Shown in pieces: positions 23,200-61,218 of a stretch of 64,000 bases of DNA (within the stretch, counting starts at the first letter, position 1; each line of letters begins with the position of its first letter). The notes below the pieces were generated by a model that saw only the letters and a list, made by a program, of their open reading frames with translations, was not told the DNA's origin and did not search any database. The position numbers were made by a program, and so were the translations under genes. This stretch comes from an uncultured Alphaproteobacteria bacterium (GTDB taxonomy: Bacteria > Pseudomonadota > Alphaproteobacteria > Rhizobiales > Rhizobiaceae), in the NCBI GenBank assembly GCA_963792485.1, contig CAWBWL010000008.1:168871-232870 (forward strand), given 5' to 3'.

Positions 23200-26100
23200 A
23201 TGCCCAAGCGGACAGACATCAAGTCGATCCTCATCATCGGCGCGGGGCCGATCATTATTGGTCAGGCCTGCGAGTTTGATTATTCGGGCACGCAGGCGTG
23301 CAAGGCGCTGAAAGCGGAGGGCTACCGGGTCATTCTGGTCAATTCCAATCCGGCGACCATCATGACCGATCCGGAGCTGGCGGACGCGACTTATATTGAG
23401 CCGATCACGCCGGAGATTGTCGCCAAGATCATAGCGAAAGAGCGGCCCGACGCGCTGCTGCCGACCATGGGCGGGCAGACGGCGCTGAACACGGCTTTGT
23501 CGCTGCGCCGCATGGGCGTTTTGGAGCGCTATAATGTCGAGATGATCGGCGCGAACGCCGAGGCCATCGACATGGCCGAGGACCGGGCTTTGTTCCGCGA
23601 GGCGATGAAGCGGATCGGGCTGGAGACGCCGCGCTCCATGCTCGCCAACGCCACGGATGTGAAGGACCTTGACCGGCAGGCGCACAAGGCCAAGCGCGCC
23701 GCGCTGAAGGACACGCTGTCCGGCGAGGCGCTGGACGCGGCGCTTGACCGGCTGGAGAATGAATGGAACCTTGGCGAGAGCGACCGCAAGCAGCGCTATA
23801 TCAGCCATGCCATGGCCATCGCCGCCCGCGCCATTGACGAGATCGGGCTTCCCCTGATCATCCGCCCCTCCTTCACCATGGGCGGCACCGGCGGCGGCAT
23901 CGCCTATAACCGCTCGGAGTTTTTCGACATCATTGGAAGCGGCCTCGACGCCTCGCCGACCACCGAAGTGCTGATCGAGGAATCGGTGCTCGGCTGGAAG
24001 GAATATGAGATGGAAGTGGTCCGCGACAAGGCGGACAATTGCATCATCATCTGCTCCATCGAAAACCTCGACCCGATGGGCGTGCACACCGGCAACTCGA
24101 TCACCGTCGCCCCGGCGCTGACGCTGACCGACAAGGAATACCAGATCATGCGCAACGCCTCCATCGCGGTGCTGCGCGAGATTGGCGTCGAGACCGGCGG
24201 CTCGAATGTGCAGTTCGCGGTCAACCCGGCGGACGGGCGGCTCGTCGTCATCGAGATGAACCCGCGCGTCTCGCGCTCGTCCGCTTTGGCGTCGAAAGCC
24301 ACCGGCTTTCCCATCGCCAAGATCGCCGCGAAGCTCTCGGTCGGCTACACGCTGGATGAGCTGGAGAACGACATTACCGGCGGCGCGACGCCGGCCTCGT
24401 TCGAGCCGTCGATTGACTATGTCGTCACCAAAATCCCGCGCTTCGCCTTCGAAAAATTCCCCGGCGCGTCGAATGTTCTGACCACGGCGATGAAGTCGGT
24501 CGGCGAAGTCATGGCGATTGGCCGCACCTTCCAGGAGAGCCTGCAGAAAGCTCTGCGCGGCCTCGAAACCGGCCTCACCGGATTGGATGAAATCGAAATC
24601 CCCGGCATCGGCACGGGCGACGACCGCAACGCCATCCGCGCCGCATTAGGCACGCCGACGCCGGACCGGCTGCGCATGGTGACGCAGGCGATGCGGCTCG
24701 GCCTCACCAATGAGGCGATCCACGATTCAGCTGCAAGATCGACCCCTGGTTCCTCGAGCAGCTGCGCGAAATCATCGACATGGAAGCGCGCATCCGCGAG
24801 CATGGCCTGCCGCGAAGACGCGGAAAATCTGCGCATGCTCAAATCCATGGGCTTTTCCGACGCCCGCCTCGCCGCGCTCACCGGCAAGCGCGGCTCGGAA
24901 GTCGCCAAGCTGCGCAACAGCCTGAAAGTGCATCCGGTCTACAAGCGCATCGACACCTGCGCCGCCGAATTCGCCTCGCCGACCGCCTATATGTATTCGA
25001 CCTACGAGACGCCGTTTGTCGGCGAAACGCAGCTCTGAAGCCAAGGTCTCGGATCGGAAGAAAGTCGTCATTCTCGGCGGCGGTCCCAATAGAATTGGCC
25101 AGGGCATCGAGTTCGATTATTGCTGCTGCCATGCCTCTTTCGCGCTGCGCGAGGCGGGCTATGAATCGATCATGATCAACTGCAATCCGGAAACCGTGTC
25201 CACCGATTACGACACGAGCGACCGGCTGTATTTCGACCCGCTGACCGCCGAAGACGTGCTCGAAATTCTGCGCGTCGAGCGGGAGGCGGGAACGCTGCAC
25301 GGCGTCATCGTCCAGTTCGGCGGCCAGACGCCGCTGAAGCTCGCCGACGCGCTGGAGCGCGCCGGCATTCCGATCCTCGGCACCACGCCGGACGCGATTG
25401 ACTTGCCGAAGACCGCGACCGGTTCCAGAAACTACTCGTCAAGCTCGACCTCACCCAGCCGCAGAACGGCATCGCCTATTCGGTCGAACAGTCGCGCACC
25501 ATCGCCTCCGAGCTCGGCTTCCCGCTCGTCGTGCGCCCGTCCTATGTCTTGGGCGGCCGCGCCATGCAGATCATCAATGATGAAGGCATGCTGCAAAGCT
25601 ATCTGCTCGACACCGTGCCGGGCCTTGTCACCGAGGACATCAAGGCGAAATATCCGAACGACAAGACCGGCCAGATCAACACGCTGCTTGGCAAAAACCC
25701 GCTGCTGTTCGACCGCTATCTCACCGACGCCGTCGAGGTCGATGTCGATTGCCTGTGCGACGGCGAGGATGTCTATATTTCCGGCATCATGGAGCATATC
25801 GAAGAGGCCGGCATCCATTCCGGCGACTCGCGCCTGCTCGCTGCCGATCCACACGCTCTCCGACAAGGTCGTCGCCGAGCTTGAGGAGCAGACCGCCGCG
25901 CTCGCCCGCGCCCTGAAAGTCGGCGGGCTGATGAATGTGCAATACGCCATCAAGGACGAGCAGGTCTACGTTCTCGAAGTGAACCCCCGCGCCTCGCGCA
26001 CCGTGCCGTTCGTCGCCAAGGCCATCGGCCTTCCGATCGCCAAAATCGCCGCCCGCGTCATGGCCGGTGAAAAGCTCAACGAAGCCATCGCCCATTACGG

Positions 26101-26688
26101 CGAGCGCGTCGACCAGAAGAAGATGAAACATGTCGCGGTGAAGGAAGCCGTCTTCCCCTTCGCCCGCTTCCCCGGCGTTGACATCCTGCTCGGCCCCGAA
26201 ATGCGCTCCACGGGCGAGGTCATGGGCCTCGACCGCGACTTCGCCATGGCCTATGCCAAAGCCCAGCTCGGCGCCGGCGTGGACCTGCCGCGCTCCGGCA
26301 CGCTGTTCGTCTCGGTCAAGGACTAGCGACAAGCCCCGCATCCTGCCCGCCGTGGACACGCTGGCCAAGCTCGGCTTCAAAATCATGGCCACCACCGGCA
26401 CGGCGAATTTCCTGAAGGAAAACGGCATCGCAGGCCGAGAAAATCAACAAGGTCCTCGAAGGCCGCCCCCACATAGAAGACGCCATCCGCAACCGCCAGG
26501 TCCAGCTCGTGTTCAACACGACGGACGGCGCGAAAGCCGAGAGCGACAGCAAATCCCTGCGCCGCGCGACGCTGATGCAGAAGGTGCCCTATTCAACAAC
26601 CCTCTCCGGCGCGCTGGCGGCGGTGGAGGCGATTGCGGCGCTGAAGGCGGGGAATTTTGAGGTGCGGCCGCTGCAGGATTATGTGTGA
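23200..26688 (+). pseudogene. carB: Carbamoyl-phosphate synthase large subunit, interrupted by at least six 1-bp indels
   Basis: Colinear with CarB along the whole length (both ATP-grasp domains, oligomerisation domain, MGS-like domain). The frame changes near 24730/24795, 25030, 25415, 25845 and 26320. The stop TGA is at 26686-26688. Confidence 0.9.
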
Positions 26689-26692
26689 GGCG
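26625..26692 (+). repeat. Direct repeat, left copy (3-prime end of carB)
   Basis: About 68 bp, GTGGAGGCGATTGCGGCGCTGAAGGCGGGGAATTTTGAGGTGCGGCCGCTGCAGGATTATGTGTGAGGCGG. It matches 30000-30067 with about 6 mismatches. Confidence 0.85.
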
Positions 26693-26773
26693 GCGCTTCG
26701 CCGCTATTTCTACCAAACGACTTAAGCCACCTTTAATTCTTCAACGCTACGTAGGCGCTGGGGGAGGCTGACT

Positions 26774-27163
26774 ATGTCACTCAATATCCGCATCAAGGAT
26801 TTCGTCAACGCCCGCGAAGTTGACAGCGGGATTGTGCTCGATTGGATGAGCGGCGTGCCGATGACGCTTGAAGTTCTCATCTGCGAACGTGTCAGCGCCG
26901 AATTTGAACGTTTGCGCAATTACCCGGATCAAGGGCTTCCGGACTTCCATCCGCTGGTCGCGTGGGTCAAATCAGCGGATTTTGCGGCACTTCACGACAA
27001 AAGGCTGAAAGACGCGCAAGAAGTCGCGCTCGCGGGATTCATCTCGGGCTCCTTTTTCGTTGTCGTTGACGGAAAGCAGATTGAGGATCTGGGCAGCGAG
27101 CTGCGCCTTACGCCAACCTCCAATGTTCGCTTCATCCGCCTTGTTCAGTTAAAGGGAGGCTGA
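26774..27163 (+). CDS. Hypothetical 129-aa protein, first gene of the inserted cassette
   Basis: RBS GGGGGAGG before the ATG. No recognisable family. Its stop lies 3 nt before the next start, whose GGAGG RBS sits inside this gene's 3-prime end (translational coupling). Confidence 0.55.
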   Translation: MSLNIRIKDFVNAREVDSGIVLDWMSGVPMTLEVLICERVSAEFERLRNYPDQGLPDFHPLVAWVKSADFAALHDKRLKDAQEVALAGFISGSFFVVVDGKQIEDLGSELRLTPTSNVRFIRLVQLKGG

Positions 27164-27166
27164 GTA

Positions 27167-29806
27167 ATGTTCGGCAAGCTCAAGAACGCGCTCTTCGGCA
27201 CGCAAAGAGAAGAGCCGCGCTTCAGCGCAGCGCCCCCCGTGAGGAAAGCCTTCGGCATGGCATCCGTGCCGGTGGTTGCCCGCGCCGCTGTCACGCCTCA
27301 GGTCGAAGCACTGAACATTGGGCCAGTTTCTCAGGCCCTCTATCCGGGCAAGCGTGAAGATGCGCTGTTTCTGGAATGGGTTGACGCGGTTAACGCCCAT
27401 TTGCGGCAGATAAAGGATCGCGCCCCGGACCCGGATGCCCATGTCATTCGCTGGATTGCAGTCAGATTTTTGGGCAACAAGACGGCGGATTTGACAGAAT
27501 CGAACCAGACGCTTTTCGGGAGCGCACAAGAGCCGGCATGGGTTCGAAAAGCCATTGAGACAATCAATTCGGTAACGCCAAAGGGTCTGGGCTTCGGCAA
27601 TTACATGGGCCCCGATATCGTCACCGGCAAGAAGAAGTTGCTTTCCCGCGGCGAAGCCGAAAGGCTGTTGAAACTGCTCGACCGACCGCCGCTGGTCATT
27701 GAGGCTTGGAACGGCCTCTCGCCGCCGCTGGCTGAACTGCTGCGCTTTGACACGCTGGACGATGCCGCGTCGCTTCTCGCGCATCTCGGCACGGCCACTT
27801 CGGCCAGTCCGTCGGGGACTTGGGAGAAAACGGCGCAGGCGCTTGCCAAGAAGGCGGGAGCCGACGTCGTAAGAGAGCGTTTGACGCAATGGCTGTCGCT
27901 GCTTGCGGACAAAAGCCCTTCGCCAAAAGACGTGCGCGACGCCTCACTGCTTTGGCACATCGGATACCAGATGACGTTGCTTGCCAGGCTGCGCGACAAC
28001 GGCGTTTCGCCGACACATGCGGCGGCGCTGGCTTTCCTTGAATATGACTTCAAACCGGTTGCGCCCGTCATGCACCCCGATATGGCAAATGCCTTCCCCG
28101 CCAGCGACGGGCAGCCGATGGTGCTGTCCAAGGAAAATGCCAACCGGGCGCGCGGCGCAGTCTGGCTGCTGTCCGGTTTGGGAGGAACACAGCCGGCCCT
28201 GTTCGAGCGCCTCGCGCTTGCAAGTTTGAACAAGTATGACTTGGGCGGCACTTATAACACACGGCAATTCTGCTCGCAGGCGCTGGCGAATGCCTGCATT
28301 TTTGCGCTGGGCCGTGACGGTTCGCCGGACGCAATCATGGCGCTTGGCCGCATCCGCCGCCGCATCCGCGATGCCCGCATCGCCGCGCAGGTTGACAAGA
28401 CAATGCAGGCGGCGGCTGCCGCCGTTGGCATGTCGGCAATTGATCTTGAAGAGACGGCATTGCCGGATTTCGACATCGGACCTGAGGGCTGGACCGAATG
28501 CATCGACGGCAACGAACTGACGTTGGAGATCAAAACAGGCGGCGCTGAGATCATTTGCACATCCCCATCCGGCAAAGCGCTGAAAAGCCTGCCGGCGGCA
28601 GTCAAATCCACGGAAGCCTGCAAGGACATGAAGGCGGCGGCGGACGAGATTGACGCCTTGCTGCCATTGATCCGCTGGCGGCTTGAATCCTCGTGGCTCG
28701 GGCATCGCAAATGGTCGCTTGAGAACTGGCGCGAGCGCTATGGCGAGCATCCTGTTGCCCGCGCGGTGGCCGCCCCGTTGATTTGGTGGATCGAGCGCGA
28801 AGGCCGGATGACTTCCGCAATGTGGCGCGAAGGAAAGTTTTCCGATGTCGGCGGCGGCGAAGTGGCGACCGGTGGCGCCACCGTCCATCTGTGGCATCCA
28901 ATTGAGGACATAGCGGGCAATGTTATGGCCTGGCGGCGGCATCTGGTCAAAAACCGCATCGTGCAGCCATTCAAGCAGGCCCATCGCGAGGTTTATCCCT
29001 TGACCGATGCCGAGCGCGAAACCGGAACATTCTCCAACCGCTATGCGGCGCACATCCTCAAGCAGCACCAATATATGGCGCTGGCGAAATCACGCGGGTG
29101 GAAGGCGAGCCATCGCATGAATGTGGATGCGCCCAACGATGCGCCGGTGATGATCGATCTTCCGGCTTGGAAAATCTGGGCTGAGATATTCATAGAAGGC
29201 GCGGGCGGTGATGATCCAGAAACCGTTGACTCCGGCGCCTATGTCTATGTCTCGACCGACCAGGTCCGCTTCCATGGCGCTTCGGGCCGCTTGAACCTTG
29301 CCGAGGTTCCGCCACTGGCATTCTCGGAAGTGATGCGGGATTGCGACCTGTTCGTCGGGGTCGCCTCCATCGGCGCTGATCCGAACTGGAATAACGGCGG
29401 CGCTGATGCGCGCCGGCCGAACCAATGGGAGCGCCACGCAGCGGACTATTGGCACCGCATGTCGTTTGAGACCCTCTCCGAAAGCGCCAAACTGCGCAAG
29501 GAGCTGGTTGCCGAGTTGCTGCCGTCCATGACAATCGCGCCTCTGTGCGAAATCCATGACAAATATCTGCGCGTGAGGGGCAAGTTGCGGACCTACCGGA
29601 TTCACTTCAATTCCGGAAACATTCTGATGGAGCCAAACGACGCCTATCTTTGCATCGTTCCAGCCAATGTCGCGCCTTCCGGCGACAAAATCTACGTGCC
29701 GTTCGAAGGGGACCGGCTTCTGTCAATCATCCTGTCCAAAGCGATCATGCTGGCAAATGACAGCGCAATTCGAGAACAGCATATAATGAACCAGATTTCA
29801 CGCTGA
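27167..29806 (+). CDS. Large (879-aa) DUF4132-like protein (MolR C-terminal-domain family)
   Basis: C-terminal half carries motifs I recall as DUF4132 hallmarks: HLWHPIE ... IVQPFKQAHREVYPLTDAER ... FSEVMRDCDLFVGVASIGADPNWNNGG. The N-terminal 450 aa has no recognised domain and no WGR motif. Confidence 0.55.
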   Translation: MFGKLKNALFGTQREEPRFSAAPPVRKAFGMASVPVVARAAVTPQVEALNIGPVSQALYPGKREDALFLEWVDAVNAHLRQIKDRAPDPDAHVIRWIAVRFLGNKTADLTESNQTLFGSAQEPAWVRKAIETINSVTPKGLGFGNYMGPDIVTGKKKLLSRGEAERLLKLLDRPPLVIEAWNGLSPPLAELLRFDTLDDAASLLAHLGTATSASPSGTWEKTAQALAKKAGADVVRERLTQWLSLLADKSPSPKDVRDASLLWHIGYQMTLLARLRDNGVSPTHAAALAFLEYDFKPVAPVMHPDMANAFPASDGQPMVLSKENANRARGAVWLLSGLGGTQPALFERLALASLNKYDLGGTYNTRQFCSQALANACIFALGRDGSPDAIMALGRIRRRIRDARIAAQVDKTMQAAAAAVGMSAIDLEETALPDFDIGPEGWTECIDGNELTLEIKTGGAEIICTSPSGKALKSLPAAVKSTEACKDMKAAADEIDALLPLIRWRLESSWLGHRKWSLENWRERYGEHPVARAVAAPLIWWIEREGRMTSAMWREGKFSDVGGGEVATGGATVHLWHPIEDIAGNVMAWRRHLVKNRIVQPFKQAHREVYPLTDAERETGTFSNRYAAHILKQHQYMALAKSRGWKASHRMNVDAPNDAPVMIDLPAWKIWAEIFIEGAGGDDPETVDSGAYVYVSTDQVRFHGASGRLNLAEVPPLAFSEVMRDCDLFVGVASIGADPNWNNGGADARRPNQWERHAADYWHRMSFETLSESAKLRKELVAELLPSMTIAPLCEIHDKYLRVRGKLRTYRIHFNSGNILMEPNDAYLCIVPANVAPSGDKIYVPFEGDRLLSIILSKAIMLANDSAIREQHIMNQISR

Positions 29807-29999
29807 TCGGCGTCTCGCTGATACGAACACTGTGGCGGAAGCCGGCGCACTGCTTCACCGCACTTCCGCCTGCCATTCCCGCTGCATCCGCACTTTGCCG
29901 CCCAGCGTCACCGTCACGATCCCCTCACACGTCCACGCCGGCCAGCCGCCATTCGGGCGCATTTTGCCGGTGAACAGGAGATATTGCGCCTTGCTGCAG

Positions 30000-30067
30000 T
30001 GGAGGTGATTGCGGCGCTGAAGGCGGGGAATTTCGAAGTGCGGCCGCTGCGGGATTATGTGTGAAGG
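30000..30067 (+). repeat. Direct repeat, right copy (degenerate carB 3-prime terminus, non-coding here)
   Basis: GTGGAGGTGATTGCGGCGCTGAAGGCGGGGAATTTCGAAGTGCGGCCGCTGCGGGATTATGTGTGAAGGCGG. Confidence 0.85.
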
Positions 30068-30074
30068 CGGACGG

Positions 30075-30377
30075 CTACCCCGCCCGCGCCTCAATCCGCT
30101 GCATGCCCTCTTCCGAGACCGTCGCCAGATCATAGTTCGCCTGCAAATTCATCCAGAACTGCGGCGTGGTGCCAAAATAGCGCGCCAGACGCTTGGCTGT
30201 GTCGGCGGTGACTTCGCGCTTCTCACGGATGATTTTTTCAATTCTGTCGCGCGGCACAAACAGCGCTCTGGCCAGCGAACCGGCGGTCAGCTGGTAGTCG
30301 GGAAGAAAGTCCTCCCGCAGAATTTCTCCGGGATGCACCGGGCGGGGTGACAGCTCATCCATGCGCGTTCCCCTCAA
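30075..30377 (-). CDS. higA: HigA-family antitoxin (XRE-type HTH)
   Basis: HPGEILREDFL ... LARALFVPRDRIEKIIREKREVTADTAKRLARYFGTTPQFWMNLQ is the canonical HigA/VapI HTH. Confidence 0.85.
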   Translation of the reverse strand: MRGTRMDELSPRPVHPGEILREDFLPDYQLTAGSLARALFVPRDRIEKIIREKREVTADTAKRLARYFGTTPQFWMNLQANYDLATVSEEGMQRIEARAG

Positions 30378-30658
30378 TGGTAATCAACAATTTCAACGTC
30401 ATAGGCATCATTGTCCTTCCAGACAAAGCATATCCGCCAATGGATATTGATTCTGATCGAATATTGTCCGTCTCTGTCGCCGCTCAATCCCTCCAGATGA
30501 TTTGAGGGCGGAACCCGCAAGTCTGAGATATCAGCGGCGGCATCCAGCTGGGCCAAACGCCGCTGCGCCCGCGCCACAATGTCGCCGGGAAATCCTTTGA
30601 CATGCCGGCCTGCCCGCAGGGCTTGTACTCGCTTGTCCTTGATATTTCTGATCAATGC
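30374..30658 (-). CDS. higB: HigB-family toxin (RelE/ParE superfamily, plasmid-maintenance killer type). Probable TTG start; overlaps higA by 4 nt.
   Basis: C-terminal LEGLSGDRDGQYSIRINIHWRICFVWKDNDAYDVEIVDYH closely resembles Proteus HigB. The N-terminus IRNIKDKRVQALRAG aligns with HigB MIKSFKHKGLKLLF. No in-frame ATG at this position, so a TTG start is assumed. Confidence 0.7.
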   Translation of the reverse strand, partial: ALIRNIKDKRVQALRAGRHVKGFPGDIVARAQRRLAQLDAAADISDLRVPPSNHLEGLSGDRDGQYSIRINIHWRICFVWKDNDAYDVEIVDYH

Positions 30659-30912
30659 AACGTATCCTAATAAGATACAAAAATCAAGTCCGAATTTTCT
30701 AACTTTCAGTTGCCCATTTGTTGCCAAAATACAACTCCCCTCTCCCGCCTTCAACCTCCCCGCACATTCCCCTTGCGTCACCATGCCGTTGCGCCTATCC
30801 GCCCGCCTCCCGGATGACACCGTCCGAGCCGAACGCGGTTCAAGCTCGTGAGCTTGGCCGACGCGCCCCCGCTGGGTGAGCGTGTGTTGAGGCCGGAAGA
30901 GGACGTTTGGGA

Positions 30913-30987
30913 TTGGCATGTAGCTCAATGGTTAGAGCGCTGGCTTCAGGTGCCAGAGGTAATAGGTTCGAATCCTGTCATGCTGCC
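30913..30987 (+). tRNA. tRNA-like sequence 1 (canonical D-arm and T-arm, anticodon-loop TTCAGGT = CAG, short variable loop, imperfect acceptor)
   Basis: TAGCTCAATGGTTAGAGC D-arm; CTGGC/GCCAG anticodon stem; GGTTCGAATCC T-arm; CCA present at 30985-30987. A CAG anticodon on a class I scaffold is abnormal. Possibly a pseudo-tRNA, or a tRNA hit by the same indel problem. Confidence 0.35.
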
Positions 30988-30988
30988 A

Positions 30989-31062
30989 CTGCGAAATAGC
31001 TCAGTTGGTTAGAGCAACAGATTAAGGTTCTGTCGGTCGAAGGTTCGATTCCTTCTACGCAC
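30989..31062 (+). tRNA. tRNA-like sequence 2 (canonical D- and T-arms, anticodon-loop TTAAGGT, acceptor stem not pairable)
   Basis: TAGCTCAGTTGGTTAGAGC; ACAGA/TCTGT anticodon stem; GAAGGTTCGATTCCTTC T-arm. The 5-prime TGCGAAA cannot pair with the 3-prime TACGCAC. Confidence 0.3.
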
Positions 31063-31414
31063 TCCGCAGTCTGAAAAACTGCAATCAGCCTATGAAGCTG
31101 ACTTACCAAATGAGCCCTTCGGGGAAGTTTGTTCCAGACTTGGAACCATCTGCGGGCTTCGGCTCAAGGGCGGGAAAAAGAAAGGAACAGCGGCGGCTTT
31201 GCCAGCGTTTTGGCGGAAGCGGCGCGCGCATTCAGGTCCGGCTTTGGGCGCGCCCATAGCTTCGCCTTTATCGCCCGCGCCGGTGAACTCTTAACCCGCA
31301 AGGCCCCCGTCACGGCTTTCCCGAAGGGTGTTCGCGCTCCGATCAACCCTTAACCCCAACAACACAGGAAACACACGACCCATGCCATGAGCTGACGTGC
31401 ATATTGAAAGGACC

Positions 31415-32581
31415 ATGACGATGACCGAGACAAAGAAGATTTTCACCCGCACCCGCATCACCGTGCCGGAAGGCGAGCGCGCGCTTGTGCTGGTCAACGG
31501 CAGGTTCGACGCGATCCTGCGCCCGGGCCGCCACGCAATCCCGTCTCTGTTCTCCTCCGTCAAGGTCGAGGCCTTTCAGCTCGTCAACGCGGCGTTCGTG
31601 AGCCCGTATGAGCAGGCGCTTGTGGCAAGCCGTCCGGATCTGGTCTCCGAGCACTTCACGGATGTGCGCACGTCGGCGGACGAGGTCGGCGTGATCTACC
31701 GCGACGGCAAGTTCCTTGTCGTGCAGAAGCCGGATGCGCGCCAGCTGTTCTGGACAGATGCCGGGCCGTGGAAGGCTGAGCTGATCGACGTGTCGGTCTC
31801 GCTCGAAGTGCCTGCGAAACTGGCGCAGCGCATCGGCGTGAGCGACCGCGTCAAGCGCTTCAGCGTCGAGGACGGTCAGGCGGGCCTGCTCTACATCGAC
31901 AACGCCTATGTGCGTTTGCTCGATGCGGGCGCCTACGCGTTCTGGAACGTTGGCCGCACGGTCTCGGTCAAGATCGTCGACACGCGCCAGCATGCGCTGG
32001 ATGTGACGGGGCAGGAAGTCTTGACCCGCGACAAAGTCTCGCTGCGTGTCAACCTGGTGGCCAAATACGCCGTGGTTGATGTGGTCAAGGCCGTGTCGAG
32101 CGTGAAGGATTATGCGGATGCGCTTTACCGCGCCTTGCAGCATGCCTTCCGCCAGTCGCTGTCGGCAAAGTCTTTGGATGAAATCCTCTCCCGCAAGGGC
32201 GAGGTCGATCTGGAGGCTGCAAAGCAGGTGCGCGATGAGATGGCGGCCATCGGTCTGGAGGTCGGCGACATCTCGATCAAGGACGTCATCCTGCCGGGCG
32301 ACATGCGCGACATGCTGAACAAGGTCGTGAACGCGGAGAAGGAGGCGGAAGCCAACGTCATCCGCCGCCGCGAGGAGACCAACGCGACGCGCTCCCTGCT
32401 CAACACGGCGAAGATCATGGCCGAAAACCCGGTCATGCTGCGCCTGAAGGAGCTGGAAGCGCTCGAAAAGATCGCCGACAAGGTCCAGACGCTGACCGTT
32501 CACAACGGCACGCAGGGCCTGCTCAACGATCTGGTCAGCCTCGGCGCGCCCAAGCCTTTGAAGCGCGCTGGCGCCAAGTGA
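31415..32581 (+). CDS. SPFH/band-7 (stomatin-prohibitin-flotillin-HflK/C) domain protein
   Basis: Central SPFH-like region followed by a long coiled-coil / Ala-Glu-rich C-terminus. RBS AAGGA before ATGACCGAG. Confidence 0.7.
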   Translation: MTMTETKKIFTRTRITVPEGERALVLVNGRFDAILRPGRHAIPSLFSSVKVEAFQLVNAAFVSPYEQALVASRPDLVSEHFTDVRTSADEVGVIYRDGKFLVVQKPDARQLFWTDAGPWKAELIDVSVSLEVPAKLAQRIGVSDRVKRFSVEDGQAGLLYIDNAYVRLLDAGAYAFWNVGRTVSVKIVDTRQHALDVTGQEVLTRDKVSLRVNLVAKYAVVDVVKAVSSVKDYADALYRALQHAFRQSLSAKSLDEILSRKGEVDLEAAKQVRDEMAAIGLEVGDISIKDVILPGDMRDMLNKVVNAEKEAEANVIRRREETNATRSLLNTAKIMAENPVMLRLKELEALEKIADKVQTLTVHNGTQGLLNDLVSLGAPKPLKRAGAK

Positions 32582-32790
32582 AACGACCCGCCCCGGCCGG
32601 AATTGGCCGGGGCGGCACCCATCTTGCCGCATTCCGACTTTTGCGTTAATACTTTCGTATCGAATTTGAAGACCGAACGAGATGCCCCGCGATTATTCGC
32701 AAGCTGACGCTTCCCTCAAAATTTCGATCCAACCGCTGGTCAGACCTTGTGTGGCCGGCACGTCAACTGCGAAAAAGGAAATAAAATCAA

Positions 32791-33020: not shown

Positions 33021-35182
<2,162 letters not shown>

Positions 35183-35195
35183 TCGAAAGGGTGCG

Positions 35196-35275
35196 ACGGC
35201 GGTGTGTGGGTCGGCGTTTGGGCTGGGGCCTAATTTCCGGATCAGCTATGCCACGAGCGCCAACCTATCCTGCGA
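35196..35275 (+). repeat. Degenerate duplicate of the aatA 3-prime coding end (would encode ...[17 protein letters not shown]...), directly abutting low-GC DNA
   Basis: Compare 35057-35128 with 35196-35263. GC content drops sharply from about 35264. Confidence 0.75.
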
Positions 35276-35380
35276 ATAATTATCGTATGAATAAATATGT
35301 CATTATCCAACTTGCCTCAATGGCATAATTTCCAGTGCAAATAAGTGTTGTTAAAGCGCAAGAGAATAAATAGCGGTTCT

Positions 35381-36424
35381 TCATTCTAATATCTCGTGAC
35401 AAGCTTCAATCTTGCTTGCATTCGTTTTTGGTTGATCCGATAGTTGCATCTGCATACTGTCTGTTGACTTGTAGCCATGCTCGGCGAAAGCCATTTTGGC
35501 TTTCGTCGTTTTACAAGAGAGCCGCTCGCTGCCGCCCGCCAAAAACCAAGATGTGGTCCATGTGTCCCATGACGGGATGAGGCCTTTATAGCCGATTGTT
35601 TTGAGTTTGCGGGCTCTCTTGTGCGCATGCATCGTCAGTTCATCACTCCCTATGGATGCGACCATTCCCGGGCTGATCATTCGTTGGCCTACTCCCGTTT
35701 TGTAGGTTACGGTCCAGACCTTGTTTGGGTGATGATCGAGAAGATATTTCACTGCCATGCGATCTTCCGCAACGTTCATATCTCTGAAAGCGAATGGCAA
35801 ATATCTGTTCTGACTGAATTGCTCACCCTTAGACCTTCCGCCTACAGTGAGTATCTTGATTACCTCTTTGCTCTCTATGAGGCCCGATTTCAGGAGGATT
35901 GCCGAAACAGTGACAGGGCCAAGTTCGGCGATCACAACCTTCCCGTTGATCTTGATTACGTCGGCTATCTCAGAAAGCATCTTGATGTCATTTGCATCAA
36001 CTTTCGATGCCGCATCAAATGGCATACGCCGCTTCGGCCCGTGGTAAACAGGCCAAGCTCCCAAGTTCAGCTCTTTAAGCCTTACTTTCAAATTAGCATG
36101 AACTTGGCTGGTGCTTGAGCCGCCATTGCCAAAAATAGAGACGATTCCAATGACTTTAATACAGCCCAATTTTTCTAGCCGTGAATACATGTAGAGCGAA
36201 ATTGAGTCATCAATCTCCCCCATACGGGTTGCATCAGAGACTATGAGAGTTGGTAATGTCAGCGCACTTGCACAGCTTGGCTTTGATCCGAAGAAGTGCT
36301 CTTCAAGACCATTTGCGAACGCAAATCCTACATTCCCCGCAAGCATCGCAGCGATAAACAATTTGATTCTGATCACCGGCAAGCCCCCGCTTTGGCGGAG
36401 AAATATCAGCGCCGTCTCATTCAA
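35381..36424 (-). CDS. Secreted hypothetical protein in low-GC islet, possibly nucleoside hydrolase (IUNH)-like
   Basis: Signal-peptide-like N-terminus. LIVSDATRMGEIDD and VIGIVSIFGNGGS loosely resemble the IU-nucleoside hydrolase Asp-cluster and GN motifs. Low GC. Confidence 0.4.
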   Translation of the reverse strand: MNETALIFLRQSGGLPVIRIKLFIAAMLAGNVGFAFANGLEEHFFGSKPSCASALTLPTLIVSDATRMGEIDDSISLYMYSRLEKLGCIKVIGIVSIFGNGGSSTSQVHANLKVRLKELNLGAWPVYHGPKRRMPFDAASKVDANDIKMLSEIADVIKINGKVVIAELGPVTVSAILLKSGLIESKEVIKILTVGGRSKGEQFSQNRYLPFAFRDMNVAEDRMAVKYLLDHHPNKVWTVTYKTGVGQRMISPGMVASIGSDELTMHAHKRARKLKTIGYKGLIPSWDTWTTSWFLAGGSERLSCKTTKAKMAFAEHGYKSTDSMQMQLSDQPKTNASKIEACHEILE

Positions 36425-59935: not shown

Positions 59936-60031
59936 TCAGACCTTGTTGAACCTCATGCCGGGCTTCACGAAAATGGACAGGGACCTGCCCGCAGCAGGAG
60001 CGATCTTTGGGAGATGAATGGTCTTGGTCAT
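59936..60031 (-). CDS. Candidate 31-aa ORF (MTKTIHLPKIAPAAGRSLSIFVKPGMRFNKV) upstream of the SagB-like gene
   Basis: ATG preceded by an AAAAGG-type RBS. It is followed by the intrinsic terminator, then the SagB-like gene starts 68 nt after the stop. No Cys/Ser/Thr enrichment. Coding status unproven. Confidence 0.2.
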   Translation of the reverse strand: MTKTIHLPKIAPAAGRSLSIFVKPGMRFNKV

Positions 60032-60243
60032 TTTTTTGCCTTTTCTGGGTTGGGTTAACAACGACCTTTTTTAGTTGTGTATCTGCAATAGTTGCAACTT
60101 GAAATTGCTTCTTTACGTAAGGAAAATTTGCGCACGATCAGCGGCTCGTGTGCTGAATTCGCTTATTTCAGCGGTCAGTAGAATCGGTGCAAATACCAAA
60201 TTCGTAGAAGGGGAGAACTTCTATGAACAAGGGGTTAAAAAGA

Positions 60244-60455
60244 TGATTAACACAAATGCAAGAGAGCTAAAAGTCAACATATTCCCTTCGCCTAGCCTAT
60301 CGTCGAGCGTAATCCTGCAAGATATTGTTCGTGGCTTGAATGAAGCGAAAAAGTTCGCCGAAATGCATTCTGATCGGGAAATACTATATTTTATATCAAT
60401 GGCACTTCATTGCACCAAAGAGAAACTATTACTCTCTATATATGATAGTAATTGA
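60244..60455 (+). CDS. Hypothetical 70-aa protein in AT-rich islet
   Basis: GC about 35% in a roughly 62% GC background. RBS AAGGGG before ATGATTAAC. Divergent from the XRE regulator gene. Confidence 0.3.
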
Positions 60456-60483
60456 GTGCATGATCAAAGTATTAGGAGATTTT

Positions 60484-61218
60484 TTATGGAAACGCAAGAA
60501 CTTCTGAAGCCTGATGAAATTTTACCTTGCGCATTGCTTTCCAGACCTTTGTTCTCTTTGGCACGGCAGTAATATAGAAACTCACTTTGCCATATTCGCT
60601 ATCAGGAGAAACATCGGCCAAACCTGCGTAGATGATATCTGAAGACGCCACCACACGCCCGACAAGGAAGGTGGGTGGCGTATTTTTTTTCAAATCGACG
60701 CCGATAAAGAACGCCAAGCCATCCCGGAAAACTATGATTCCCGAATGCACGCCCCGCCCACGCGGATGTAGGACGCCAGCAACGCCTCCCGGCCTTGTTA
60801 TCCGCCTAAAACTAGTAACACCTCCCTCACGCTTTACCGCCATCAATGAGCAAGCAACGAGATTTGGATCTTCGGGCACAGAAAAGTTGACGTAATACAA
60901 CCCATCGATTAGCGCCGGCCGGGTTGACAACCTCTCAGCTGAAACCACGCGTTCGATGAACTTCCTCTGCCGGTCCGTCAGCGCCTCAATATTCCGAAAA
61001 TCCGTTTCAGGATCCGCCTCCCGAAACAGCGTTCCGACATCCACCTGAAAATACGCGCAGATATTGTCGATCACCCGCTCGTTTGGCAGGTTCTTGCCGG
61101 TCACATAGCTGTTGAACTGCTGCCTGTTCAGCCCAAGCTCGCGCGCAACGTGGGCGTGGCTTTTCTCTTTCGCACACAGCCGGCGAAGATTGCCCGAGAA
61201 AATAGCGCGTATCGACAT
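60484..61218 (-). CDS. XRE-family HTH transcriptional regulator with an uncharacterised C-terminal domain of about 150 aa
   Basis: LRRLCAKEKSHAHVARELGLNRQQFNSYVTGKNLPN is a HTH_3 motif. The C-terminal domain is not recognised and has no S24 peptidase motif. Confidence 0.7.
   Translation of the reverse strand: MSIRAIFSGNLRRLCAKEKSHAHVARELGLNRQQFNSYVTGKNLPNERVIDNICAYFQVDVGTLFREADPETDFRNIEALTDRQRKFIERVVSAERLSTRPALIDGLYYVNFSVPEDPNLVACSLMAVKREGGVTSFRRITRPGGVAGVLHPRGRGVHSGIIVFRDGLAFFIGVDLKKNTPPTFLVGRVVASSDIIYAGLADVSPDSEYGKVSFYITAVPKRTKVWKAMRKVKFHQASEVLAFP

What the first reader, a model, noticed from the sequence alone, without database searches (positions are those of the whole stretch)
26774..29806. 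Translationally coupled pair: a 129-aa protein of unknown family plus an 879-aa DUF4132-like protein, a candidate uncharacterised system
The large protein carries what I recognise as the DUF4132 core (HLWHPIE ... QPFKQAHREVYPLT ... SEVMRDCDLFVGVASIGADPNWNNGG). This domain is known from E. coli MolR and many uncharacterised proteins and has no assigned biochemical function. Here it lacks the WGR partner domain and is instead preceded by a small protein with no recognisable family. The two genes are coupled (the RBS of gene 2 lies inside the stop region of gene 1). As an inserted cargo next to a toxin-antitoxin module, the pair is a plausible accessory (defence or stress) module that is undescribed as a unit.
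Basis: partly seen in the sequence, partly recalled or inferred. Interest (0 to 1): 0.75.

Follow-up and report, generated by a model that had tools for sequence, protein, structure and literature searches.

The report
Ubiquitin-like protein paired with DUF4132 enzyme
The small "unknown" gene encodes an undescribed bacterial ubiquitin-like protein ending in a free Gly-Gly, and it is almost always paired with a large DUF4132/DUF7737 protein and never with the usual E1/E2 enzymes, so the pair may handle a ubiquitin-like tag in a new way.

Summary
Both ORFs are real, intact and coupled: 26774-27163 (129 aa) and 27167-29806 (879 aa), 3 nt apart. The GGAGG ribosome-binding site of gene 2 is formed by the Gly-Gly codons of gene 1.

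The large protein is a HEAT/ARM-like solenoid followed by DUF4132 (E 4e-45), a conserved unannotated segment and DUF7737 (E 8e-34). It has no WGR domain.

The pairing is near-obligate. 76 of 78 assessable loci chosen by the Ubl hold the DUF4132-DUF7737 gene, and 51 of 53 loci chosen by DUF7737 hold the Ubl. This spans more than 10 phyla. No third gene is conserved nearby: no E1, E2 or JAB.

Neighbourhoods are ordinary, not defence islands, and no phage copies were found. The Deinococcus radiodurans member (DRA0165/DRA0166) is induced by DNA damage and oxidative stress in published work.

Best reading: a self-contained Ubl plus dedicated partner-enzyme stress module whose chemistry is unknown and possibly non-canonical. 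In this window it sits in a variable spot after carB, flanked by a 75-bp repeat.

The parts
26614..26688 (+). Direct repeat copy 1: the last 75 nt of carB, including its TGA stop
   Evidence: the repeat finder D1. It is 91% identical to 29990-30064. L001 and L002 align to both copies.
26685..26702 (+). Terminator-like hairpin straight after carB. The pair therefore probably has its own, unidentified promoter in 26703-26773.
   Evidence: Consensus scan. The scan found no more hairpins than expected by chance, so this is only suggestive. No sigma-70 consensus promoter was found.
26774..27163 (+). Gene for a 129-aa ubiquitin-like (beta-grasp) protein ending ...FIRLVQLKGG-stop
27155..27159 (+). 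GGAGG ribosome-binding site of the large gene, formed by the Gly-Gly codons of the small gene, 7 nt before the ATG at 27167
   Evidence: Read directly from the sequence. The same tight coupling (-4 to +14 nt) holds in 55 of 64 related loci.
27167..28570 (+). Large gene, residues 1-468: variable alpha-helical (HEAT/ARM-like) solenoid, with a low-confidence and probably disordered N-terminus
28571..29101 (+). Large gene, residues 469-645: DUF4132 domain, with motifs LWHP and QPFKQAHREVY
   Evidence: Pfam PF13569, E 4.2e-45. Best-modelled part of the protein (pLDDT 82-92). Invariant residues: R505, W540, W576, P578, R590, Q600, P601, Q604, R607, E608, Y610, T613, A615, E616, S623, N624, R625, H629, W645.
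29102..29485 (+). Large gene, residues 646-773: conserved segment with no Pfam model (TDQVRF, SEVMRDxDLFVGV, DPxW)
   Evidence: Invariant D654, E721, R724, D727, F729, D738, W741, Y761, W762, L770 across 56 sequences. No Pfam hit even at E<=10. Absent from E. coli YehI.
29486..29806 (+). Large gene, residues 774-879: DUF7737 domain with invariant H813, S816, C829 and K858 (IHxGSGN...YLCIVP...SK), then the stop codon
   Evidence: Pfam PF24879, E 8.3e-34. Invariants. The Cys motif is lost in the Ubl-less Acetobacter homologue.
29990..30064 (+). Direct repeat copy 2: a stray copy of the carB 3' end. It marks the right edge of the ~3.3-kb stretch that holds the pair.
   Evidence: The 96%-identical relative L001 diverges from the window immediately after this repeat.
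30075..30655 (-). higA (30075-30377) and higB (30374-~30655) toxin-antitoxin pair. It is a neighbour, not part of the module.
   Evidence: Pfam HTH_3 E 1.9e-5 and HigB-like_toxin E 2.7e-15. Replaced by ParD/ParE in L001 and absent in L002.

Best explanation
The locus is a self-contained two-gene operon. Gene 1 makes a ubiquitin-like beta-grasp protein whose mature C-terminus is a free Gly-Gly. Gene 2, translated in step with it, makes its dedicated partner. That partner has a variable HEAT/ARM-type solenoid (a likely binding platform) fused to a conserved DUF4132 / middle / DUF7737 module rich in invariant polar residues, including one invariant Cys and one invariant His.

I propose that the large protein binds the Ubl and acts chemically on its terminal glycine. 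It would activate the glycine and pass the Ubl to itself or to proteins held by the solenoid, doing in one polypeptide the job that E1/E2(/E3) enzymes do in the known systems. I also propose that the module is used in stress responses (DNA damage, oxidative stress) rather than as a classical anti-phage system.

Shown here:
- the Ubl fold and the GG terminus;
- the near-obligate pairing and translational coupling;
- the absence of E1/E2/JAB neighbours;
- a natural Ubl-enzyme fusion;
- stress induction of the Deinococcus orthologues (published).

Inferred: physical binding; any catalysis on the GG tail; which residues are catalytic; what the targets are.

My confidence that this is a Ubl plus a dedicated partner is about 0.85. 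My confidence in the conjugation-type mechanism is about 0.35. The figure given blends the two.
For: Ubl identity:
- C-terminal ...[FV]xRLxPLxGG-stop in 90 of 98 library representatives, in all 80 genome loci and in all 51 Ubl ORFs found in the metagenome loci.
- AF2 model at pLDDT 75 with a flexible tail.

Obligate pairing:
- Loci chosen by the Ubl: a DUF4132-DUF7737 gene lies immediately downstream in 64, plus 4 cut off by a contig end. It lies within 1.2 kb in 2, is degenerate in 1 and lies upstream in 5. Two are orphans and 2 cannot be assessed.
- Loci chosen by the DUF7737 module: 51 of 53 assessable loci carry the Ubl.
- All 8 lookups of close and distant homologues show it.
- DUF4132-only proteins (E. 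coli YehI, P0011) have no Ubl.

Other points:
- Coupling: the spacing is -4 to +14 nt in 55 of 64 loci.
- No third partner: clustering of neighbour ORFs finds nothing conserved, and a Pfam scan of 135 neighbours shows no ThiF, UQ_con or JAB among the listed recurrent families.
- Rosetta-stone fusion: in L038 a Ubl domain that has lost its GG is fused to the N-terminus of the enzyme, and a free GG-Ubl gene follows.
- Enzyme-like conservation: 44 invariant positions in 56 sequences, including E721, R724, D727, H813, S816, C829 and K858. A divergent homologue without a Ubl has lost the Cys motif.
- Stress link: DRA0165 is a family member (E 2e-26, ends LAGG) directly upstream of DRA0166. An RDRM palindrome lies 80 nt upstream. 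Induction is DdrO/IrrE-dependent and mitomycin-inducible (PMC8533742). The DR_A0165 product rises after H2O2 and gamma rays, and its knockout is viable and more resistant to oxidative stress (PMC9650054).
Against: - There is no nucleotide-binding motif and no sequence or profile link to E1, E2, JAB, PafA or ATP-grasp families.
- The invariant Cys is modelled at the end of a beta-strand, not in a classical nucleophile setting.
- Housekeeping MoeB/ThiF-type enzymes elsewhere in the genome could activate the Ubl.
- In D. radiodurans, co-IP with C-terminally tagged protein (which should block conjugation) recovered much the same partners as N-terminally tagged protein, and the text and supplements do not name DR_A0166 among them (PMC9650054).
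- The fusion that lacks GG shows the Ubl can work without conjugation, at least in cis.
Confidence: 0.45

Rival explanations
1. Non-covalent partner. The Ubl is a regulatory or chaperone-like subunit, or a removable plug, that simply binds the large protein, much as UBL domains bind receptors. The GG tail is conserved because it fits a pocket, and the large protein's real activity is directed at something else, for example a damaged nucleic acid or protein.
Against: A purely structural contact rarely demands that the protein stop exactly after GG in about 95% of members across more than 10 phyla. In known biology that pattern marks a C-terminal carboxylate that reacts (ubiquitin, ThiS, MoaD). 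In L038 a free GG-Ubl is kept alongside the fused copy.
Confidence: 0.25
2. Sulfur carrier. The Ubl works like ThiS or MoaD. It is adenylated and thiocarboxylated by a housekeeping MoeB/ThiF-type enzyme plus a sulfurtransferase, and the DUF4132-DUF7737 protein is the 'synthase' that uses the thiocarboxylate to put sulfur into a cofactor, nucleoside or metabolite.
For: The best structural match is the molybdopterin-synthase sulfur carrier MOCS2A, and ThiS/MoaD proteins are among the hits. There is no E2 or DUB, as in sulfur-carrier systems. The founding DUF4132 gene, molR, was named for a molybdate-utilisation phenotype (Lee et al. 1990, as cited in PMC8533742). In D. radiodurans the pair lies near trxC, a YeeE/YedE gene, modA, thiD and a thiazole synthase gene.
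Against: No sulfur, molybdenum or thiamine gene recurs among the neighbours of 80 loci. There is no match to the Pfam ThiS/MoaD model. At 125-135 aa with a long helical insert, the Ubl is unlike the compact 66-90-aa carriers. moeA and moeB were not co-regulated in Deinococcus (PMC8533742). E. coli MolR/YehI lacks both the Ubl and the DUF7737 module, so the molR phenotype does not transfer.
Confidence: 0.15
3. Anti-phage or anti-mobile-element defence system. The Ubl would be attached to, or released against, invader proteins, as in the Bil and Bub systems.
For: Distribution is sporadic and cross-phylum, including plasmids and chromids. In this window the pair sits in a variable stretch beside HigBA. 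The allele in a close relative is far more diverged (68% aa) than its flanks (90% nt). The known bacterial Ubl conjugation systems are defence- or stress-related (PMC11601603).
Against: No PADLOC match. The neighbours are mostly metabolic and housekeeping genes, with only scattered generic PADLOC hits. No copies were found in 2.9 million viral contigs or 50,697 phage genomes. The only experimental data point to DNA-damage and oxidative-stress regulation. This reading is about biological role, so it does not exclude the best explanation.
Confidence: 0.12
4. Toxin-antitoxin-like pair. The small upstream protein neutralises a toxic large protein.
For: A small upstream gene is translationally coupled to a larger downstream gene. 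The pair sits next to genuine TA modules here and on an Acetobacter plasmid.
Against: Deletion of DR_A0165 in D. radiodurans, with DR_A0166 transcript levels unchanged, is viable and even more stress-resistant (PMC9650054). No toxin domain was detected. Nothing in TA biology explains a GG-stop on a beta-grasp protein. The gene order is reversed in some lineages.
Confidence: 0.03

Closest known systems
ThiS/MoaD sulfur-carrier proteins with their partner enzymes (ThiF/ThiG, MoeB/MoaE)
   Different: No match to the ThiS/MoaD sequence family. The protein is about 50 residues longer, with a helical insert. No E1-type adenylating enzyme or sulfur, molybdenum or thiamine gene is conserved nearby. 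The partner is a ~800-1,650-aa HEAT/DUF4132/DUF7737 protein unrelated to ThiG or MoaE.
Bacterial ubiquitination-like systems: type II CBASS Cap2/Cap3, Bil (BilA-D) and Bub (6E/DUF6527) operons (PMC11601603, PMC11601596, PMC10557695)
   Same: A bacterial Ubl with a reactive-looking Gly terminus, encoded in a compact, sporadically distributed operon. These systems are linked to stress or conflict.
   Different: All of those operons encode recognisable E1 and E2 homologues and usually a JAB or other peptidase. This pair has none. Its only partner has no detectable relation to E1 or E2. It has two genes rather than three to five.
E. coli MolR (YehH) / YehI and the yehF-yehQ cluster, the founding DUF4132 proteins
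   Same: They share the DUF4132 domain (YehI matches profile positions 311-561, E 3e-35). They are DNA-damage regulated: a LexA-type box AACTGGATAAAATTACAGGG lies before yehF, and molR is cited as a member of the LexA regulon in PMC8533742. This parallels the DdrO control of DRA0165/0166.
   Different: YehI lacks the conserved middle segment and DUF7737. It comes with WGR (YehF, MolR), MoxR ATPase, VWA and SWIM genes. It has no Ubl gene: YehK does not match the Ubl profile.
Deinococcus radiodurans DR_A0165 (SEP068184) / DR_A0166
   Same: True members of the same two families in the same order, 3 nt apart. These are the only members with experimental data (PMC8533742, PMC9650054).
   Different: DR_A0166 is the long form (1,626 aa). 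The closely related ~1,650-aa proteins carry DUF5724/HEAT at the N-terminus, but DR_A0166 itself was not scanned here. The published work treated DR_A0165 as a Deinococcus-specific small peptide and DR_A0166 as a DUF4132 protein. It did not note the ubiquitin-like fold, the GG terminus or the wide distribution of the pair.
Pup / PafA-Dop pupylation
   Same: A bacterial protein tag with a Gly-Gly-containing C-terminus, handled by a single non-E1 ligase family. It sets a precedent for E1-independent tagging.
   Different: Pup is intrinsically disordered and ends GGQ/GGE, and PafA is a glutamine-synthetase-like ligase. Here the tag is a folded beta-grasp protein ending GG, and the partner shows no such fold or motif.

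Membership tests
DUF4132 superfamily (Pfam PF13569) | Significant match to the PF13569 profile over its full length | tested here: met
   E 4.2e-45, 154 bits against a cut-off of 27, profile positions 1-179 of 179, residues 469-645.
DUF4132-DUF7737 subfamily | C-terminal DUF7737 (PF24879) plus the conserved middle segment with SEVMRDxDLFVGV | tested here: met
   PF24879 E 8.3e-34, residues 774-877. The invariant residues are shared with 55 other members.
MolR/YehI-type DUF4132 proteins of E. coli | WGR domain in the same protein or operon, and the MoxR/VWA/SWIM gene context | tested here: not met
   No WGR hit in either protein. No such genes recur around the pair in related loci. YehI lacks the C-terminal half present here.
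Ubiquitin-like (beta-grasp) modifier/carrier proteins | Beta-grasp fold | tested here: met
Ubiquitin-like (beta-grasp) modifier/carrier proteins | Exposed C-terminal Gly-Gly as the last two residues of the mature protein | tested here: met
   The window protein ends LKGG-stop. So do 90 of 98, 80 of 80 and 51 of 51 family members. The tail is modelled as flexible (pLDDT <50 for residues 127-129).
Ubiquitin-like (beta-grasp) modifier/carrier proteins | C-terminal carboxylate is activated (acyl-adenylate) and forms a covalent product (thioester, isopeptide or thiocarboxylate) | not testable with these tools
   This needs biochemistry or mass spectrometry. The published co-IP data on DR_A0165 do not address it (PMC9650054).
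ThiS/MoaD sulfur carriers | Match to the ThiS/MoaD sequence family, and linkage to ThiF/MoeB plus ThiG/MoaE or other sulfur-metabolism genes | tested here: not met
   No Pfam ThiS hit at E<=0.1. No PDB sequence relative. No recurrent sulfur, molybdenum or thiamine neighbours in 80 loci.
Bacterial ubiquitination-like systems (CBASS type II, Bil, Bub) | E1 (ThiF-like adenylation) and E2 (UBC-like) domains encoded in the operon, usually with a JAB or DUF6527 peptidase | tested here: not met
   PADLOC, which includes CBASS models, gives no hit for either protein. Pfam finds only DUF4132 and DUF7737. No conserved third gene.
Known anti-phage defence systems (PADLOC-DB v2) | Protein match to a catalogued defence family, or consistent location in defence islands | tested here: not met
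   No hits. Among 135 neighbouring proteins only scattered generic PADLOC matches appear, and Pfam shows mostly housekeeping functions.
Type II toxin-antitoxin modules | The small protein neutralises a growth-arresting partner, so loss of the small gene alone is deleterious | tested here: not met
   Not tested on this locus. For the orthologue, the DR_A0165 knockout is viable and more stress-resistant with DR_A0166 transcript levels unchanged (PMC9650054).

The most novel reading that the evidence does not exclude
DUF4132-DUF7737 proteins are a new class of single-polypeptide enzymes that activate and conjugate a ubiquitin-like protein. They would take a dedicated GG-terminated beta-grasp protein and attach it, via the invariant Cys829/His813 site, to targets held by their HEAT solenoid, without any E1 or E2. 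That would be a third, independent route to ubiquitin-like tagging in bacteria (after E1/E2-type systems and pupylation), switched on by DNA damage or oxidative stress.
Probability: 0.25. Interest if true: 0.9.

Novelty: new variant of a known kind. Interest (0 to 1): 0.75.

Why it matters
Bacterial ubiquitin-like systems have become an active topic (CBASS Cap2, Bil, Bub). Every system described so far was found by looking for E1/E2 homologues, and a search of that kind cannot find this family.

Here a diglycine beta-grasp protein family has at least 2,487 clusters at 90% identity and spans Actinomycetota, Acidobacteriota, Planctomycetota, Armatimonadota, Cyanobacteria, Bacteroidota, Myxococcota, Deinococcota and Pseudomonadota. 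It is locked to a single large partner of unknown fold.

If the partner acts on the GG tail, this is new enzymology for protein or cofactor tagging. It would also give a first handle on DUF4132, a domain with no assigned function since the 1990 molR report.

The finding also re-reads two published Deinococcus results. The 'species-specific stress peptide' SEP068184 and the DdrO-regulated DRA0165-DRA0166 operon become one ubiquitin-like system in a genetically tractable organism, so the hypothesis can be tested directly.

If the Ubl turns out to be only a binding subunit, the result is more modest. It would still annotate thousands of hypothetical proteins.

Tried and rejected
- **Sequence-family searches of the small protein** (Pfam, NCBIfam, PADLOC) and a profile search of PDB sequences found nothing. 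A word-indexed homology search with the single sequence found only 3 relatives. The exhaustive HMMER scan and a profile search were needed.
- **E2-like idea for DUF7737.** The topology (helix, beta-meander, H-x-G-S-G-N ... C loop, helices) suggested it. The model could not be compared with E2 structures alone.
- **Known DNA-damage operators upstream of the Ubl genes.** I scanned for LexA boxes of several phyla, RDRM and RecA-NDp. Only the Deinococcus RDRM and a single actinobacterial RecA-NDp-like site were found. There is nothing in this window, so DNA-damage control cannot be generalised.
- **YehK of E. coli as a hidden Ubl:** no match.
- **Conserved third gene:** none. The top clusters were shadow ORFs of the pair itself.
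- **Phage or viral copies:** none.
- **Source record of the window:** Relatives and flanking genes indicate a Rhizobiales-like alphaproteobacterium, probably from a metagenome assembly.
- **One literature search (YehI/YehH)** was wasted on unrelated words.


Full report
**1. The observation**

The window holds two intact, same-strand ORFs exactly where stated: 26774-27163 (129 aa) and 27167-29806 (879 aa). The small ORF ends ...TTA AAG GGA GGC TGA. Three bases later comes the ATG of the large ORF. The GGAGG ribosome-binding site of gene 2 is therefore made by the two glycine codons that end gene 1.

Pfam confirms DUF4132 (residues 469-645, E 4.2e-45) and adds DUF7737 (774-877, E 8.3e-34). There is no WGR domain. 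The third (SEVMRDCDLFVGV..., residues 720-745) lies in a conserved stretch between the two Pfam domains. The small protein has no hit in Pfam, NCBIfam or PADLOC. HigA and HigB downstream are confirmed.

**2. What the small protein is**

A single-sequence word-indexed search found only three close relatives. An exhaustive HMMER scan of 1.84 billion cluster representatives found 96. A profile search then found at least 2,487 clusters, all unnamed.

Their common feature is the C-terminus. 90 of 98 sequences stop exactly after ...[FV]-x-R-L-x-P-L-x-G-G. This resembles the ...LVLRLRGG end of ubiquitin (the ubiquitin sequence is from my own knowledge).

The '129-aa protein of unknown family' is thus an uncurated family of ubiquitin-like proteins (Ubl) with a ready-made diglycine end.

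**3. The pair is a module**

Every homologue of the large protein that I looked up has a 124-150-aa gene directly upstream, in unrelated genomic contexts. This holds from 96% down to about 35% identity. These small proteins align with the window's and all end in GG.

*Survey from the Ubl side.* I took 80 loci from species-representative genomes. They cover Actinomycetota, Acidobacteriota, Armatimonadota, Planctomycetota, Cyanobacteria, Bacteroidota, Myxococcota, Chloroflexota, Deinococcota, Gemmatimonadota and Pseudomonadota. All 80 Ubl ORFs end in GG.

| Position of the DUF4132-DUF7737 gene | Loci |
|---|---|
| Immediately downstream | 64 |
| Downstream, cut off by the contig end | 4 |
| Within 1.2 kb | 2 |
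| Degenerate | 1 |
| Immediately upstream | 5 |
| Absent (orphan Ubl) | 2 |
| Not assessable | 2 |

*Survey from the enzyme side.* I took 80 metagenome loci chosen by the C-terminal module. Of the 53 where the relevant flank is present, 51 carry the Ubl, again always ending in GG.

The spacing between the Ubl stop and the enzyme start is -4 to +14 nt in 55 of 64 loci. No other gene recurs nearby. The only large clusters were shadow ORFs of the pair itself, and a Pfam scan of 135 flanking proteins listed ordinary, heterogeneous functions with no E1, E2 or JAB.

DUF4132 proteins that lack DUF7737 have no Ubl. These include E. coli YehI, which matches only the DUF4132 part of the profile, and P0011. 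The Ubl therefore goes with the C-terminal module, not with DUF4132 in general.

**4. Anatomy of the large protein**

The N-terminal half is helical and poorly conserved. The model's only structural matches are HEAT/ARM solenoids. In cyanobacterial and Deinococcota relatives it is replaced by a ~1,200-residue DUF5724/HEAT region. It looks like an exchangeable binding platform.

The C-terminal ~410 residues are highly conserved. 44 positions are invariant in 56 sequences from many phyla, among them R607, E608, Y610, R625, H629, E721, R724, D727, D738, H813, S816, C829 and K858. This is the conservation pattern of an enzyme.

I could not assign a fold:

- No PDB sequence relative.
- No Foldseek hit below E 0.1.
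- No weak Pfam hits in 56 members.
- An E2-like reading of DUF7737, prompted by its topology and the H-x-G-S-G-N...C motif, got no support from hhalign.

The negative fold result is therefore weak.

Two natural variants are informative:

- In L038 a Ubl domain that has lost its GG is fused to the N-terminus of the enzyme, and a free GG-Ubl gene follows. This argues for physical association.
- An Acetobacter plasmid homologue with no Ubl nearby has lost the Cys motif, PFEGD and SK.

**5. Functional clues from other organisms**

The Deinococcus radiodurans genes DRA0165 and DRA0166 are members of the two families. DRA0165 matches the Ubl profile at E 2e-26 and ends LTALAGG. It lies 3 nt before the 1,626-aa DUF4132 protein DRA0166.

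Published work gives the following:

- The operon is a direct DdrO target.
- It is strongly induced when DdrO is depleted.
- DRA0166 protein rises after mitomycin C in an IrrE-dependent way (PMC8533742).

I see the RDRM palindrome TTATGCTATTTACATAA 80 nt upstream, and a similar one in D. ficus.

A second paper detected the DR_A0165 product as 'SEP068184' (PMC9650054). It found:

- The product is up-regulated by H2O2 and gamma irradiation.
- Its knockout is viable and more resistant to oxidative stress.
- It pulls down many cytoplasmic proteins.

That paper called it Deinococcus-specific and did not note the fold or the GG end.

The E. coli DUF4132 cluster yehF-yehH(molR)-yehI carries a LexA-type box just before yehF, and molR is cited as a LexA-regulon member (PMC8533742). 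DNA-damage control is therefore seen twice in the wider superfamily. I found no known operator upstream of the pair in this window, nor consistently in other phyla.

**6. Defence or cargo?**

Neither protein matches PADLOC. The neighbours are mostly housekeeping genes with only scattered generic PADLOC hits. No copy exists in 2.9 million viral contigs or 50,697 phage genomes. Copies do occur on large plasmids or chromids of Deinococcus, Novosphingobium and Fulvitalea.

In this window the pair lies directly after carB. It is bracketed by a 75-bp, 91%-identical direct repeat of the carB 3' end (26614-26688 and 29990-30064).

Two relatives can be compared with the window:

- A metagenome contig that is 96% identical across the pair (L001) diverges from the window immediately after the second repeat copy. 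It carries ParDE where the window has HigBA.
- A relative whose flanks are 90% identical (L002) has carB-Ubl-enzyme-csp. Its enzyme is only 68% identical, and it lacks the window's 2.8-kb HigBA / tRNA / SPFH segment.

The pair is therefore accessory and sits in a recombination-active spot. The evidence for a defence role is thin.

**7. How it most likely works**

Established here:

- A folded Ubl with a free GG.
- A dedicated, co-translated partner with enzyme-like conservation.
- No E1, E2 or DUB.
- Stress induction in one lineage.

The strict GG-stop is the signature of a C-terminal carboxylate that undergoes chemistry, as in ubiquitin, ThiS and MoaD. The module travels as two genes across phyla. 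The most economical reading is therefore that the large protein itself handles the tail: it would activate the tail and transfer the Ubl to itself or to proteins bound by the solenoid. This step is inferred, not shown. I put it at about 0.35, and the broader 'Ubl plus dedicated partner' statement at about 0.85.

The rival readings are:

| Rival | Confidence | Main points |
|---|---|---|
| Non-covalent regulatory subunit | 0.25 | Favoured by the GG-less fusion and the lack of any recognisable activating fold |
| ThiS/MoaD-like sulfur carrier using a housekeeping E1 | 0.15 | Favoured by the MoaD-like fold and the old molR phenotype; disfavoured by the neighbourhoods |
| Defence role | 0.12 | Not exclusive of the best explanation |
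| Toxin-antitoxin pair | 0.03 | Contradicted by the viable DR_A0165 knockout |

**8. Comparison with what is known, and novelty**

The closest known things are ThiS/MoaD with their enzymes and the Bil, Bub and CBASS-type bacterial ubiquitination-like operons. The pair shares the Ubl with them but fails their defining features: E1 and E2 domains, a ThiS-family match and sulfur-gene linkage (see the membership table).

The full-text library holds no paper with DUF7737, DUF5724 or PF13569. Only four papers mention DUF4132, none in a Ubl context. The 2006 census of prokaryotic Ubl neighbourhoods does not mention MolR, WGR or YehI. The library is incomplete, so an earlier description elsewhere cannot be excluded.

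I class it as a new variant of a known kind: a bacterial Ubl system with an unprecedented partner. There is a real chance (about 0.25) that the chemistry is categorically new.

**9. Verdict**

Interest 0.75.

Noticed in passing
window 23200-26688 and ~33960-35182: carB is split over at least three reading frames, with an out-of-frame stretch inside ORF 25016-26326. The aspartate aminotransferase gene is split over two frames. These are either indel errors of a long-read or metagenome assembly, or pseudogenes. The 96%-identical contig L001 also has a PAD_porph gene in four pieces. The Ubl and DUF4132 ORFs are intact.
   Followed up: partly
window 30914-30986 and 30990-31062 (+): Two tandem ~73-nt tRNAs (Rfam 59 and 50 bits). 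ARAGORN reads their anticodons as CAG and AAG (Leu). They have the short class-I length, whereas bacterial tRNA-Leu normally has a long variable arm. They lie between higB and an SPFH-domain gene in a 2.8-kb segment (29807-32618) that is absent from the close relative L002.
   Followed up: partly
window 26614-26688 and 29990-30064: A 75-bp direct repeat (91% identical) of the carB 3' end, including its stop codon, brackets the Ubl-DUF4132 pair. Strain-to-strain divergence starts right after the second copy. It looks like an att-type scar of insertion at the carB 3' end, but no integrase is present.
   Followed up: yes
L038:2788-6138: In an actinobacterial MAG, a Ubl domain that has lost its Gly-Gly (...LVQLVEADE...) is fused to the N-terminus of the DUF4132-DUF7737 protein (971 aa). 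A separate free Ubl-GG gene follows.
   Followed up: yes
L069, L075, L084 (Actinomadura, Spirillospora): A variant arrangement: two tandem DUF4132-DUF7737 genes followed by a single Ubl gene.
   Followed up: no
L094:1261-1734 (-), Fulvitalea axinellae plasmid pFA1: A second, divergent pair next to a canonical one. Its Ubl-like ORF ends ...FVRLTFLAGSTY instead of GG, and it sits beside a DUF5724 protein.
   Followed up: no
L090:~725 (D. radiodurans, 80 nt upstream of DR_A0165): PMC9650054 states that no RDRM lies upstream of DR_A0165. The palindrome TTATGCTATTTACATAA is there, in agreement with PMC8533742. D. ficus has TTCTGCTATTTACAGAA at the equivalent place.
   Followed up: yes
L017, 27 nt before the Ubl start (Peterkaempfera griseoplana): An exact RecA-NDp-type (PafBC-dependent DNA-damage) promoter motif, TGTCGGTG-N8-TACGAT. 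None was found in 23 other actinobacterial loci. The background rate is about 0.002 per upstream region.
   Followed up: partly
L089:6450-6465 (E. coli K-12, before yehF): A LexA-type box AACTGGATAAAATTACAGGG lies about 10 nt before the start of yehF, the WGR gene heading the yehF-yehH(molR)-yehI cluster.
   Followed up: partly
window 35001-36000 and 60001-61000: These 1-kb blocks have markedly lower G+C (0.51 and 0.45) than the window average of about 0.60. They may be further acquired DNA.
   Followed up: no
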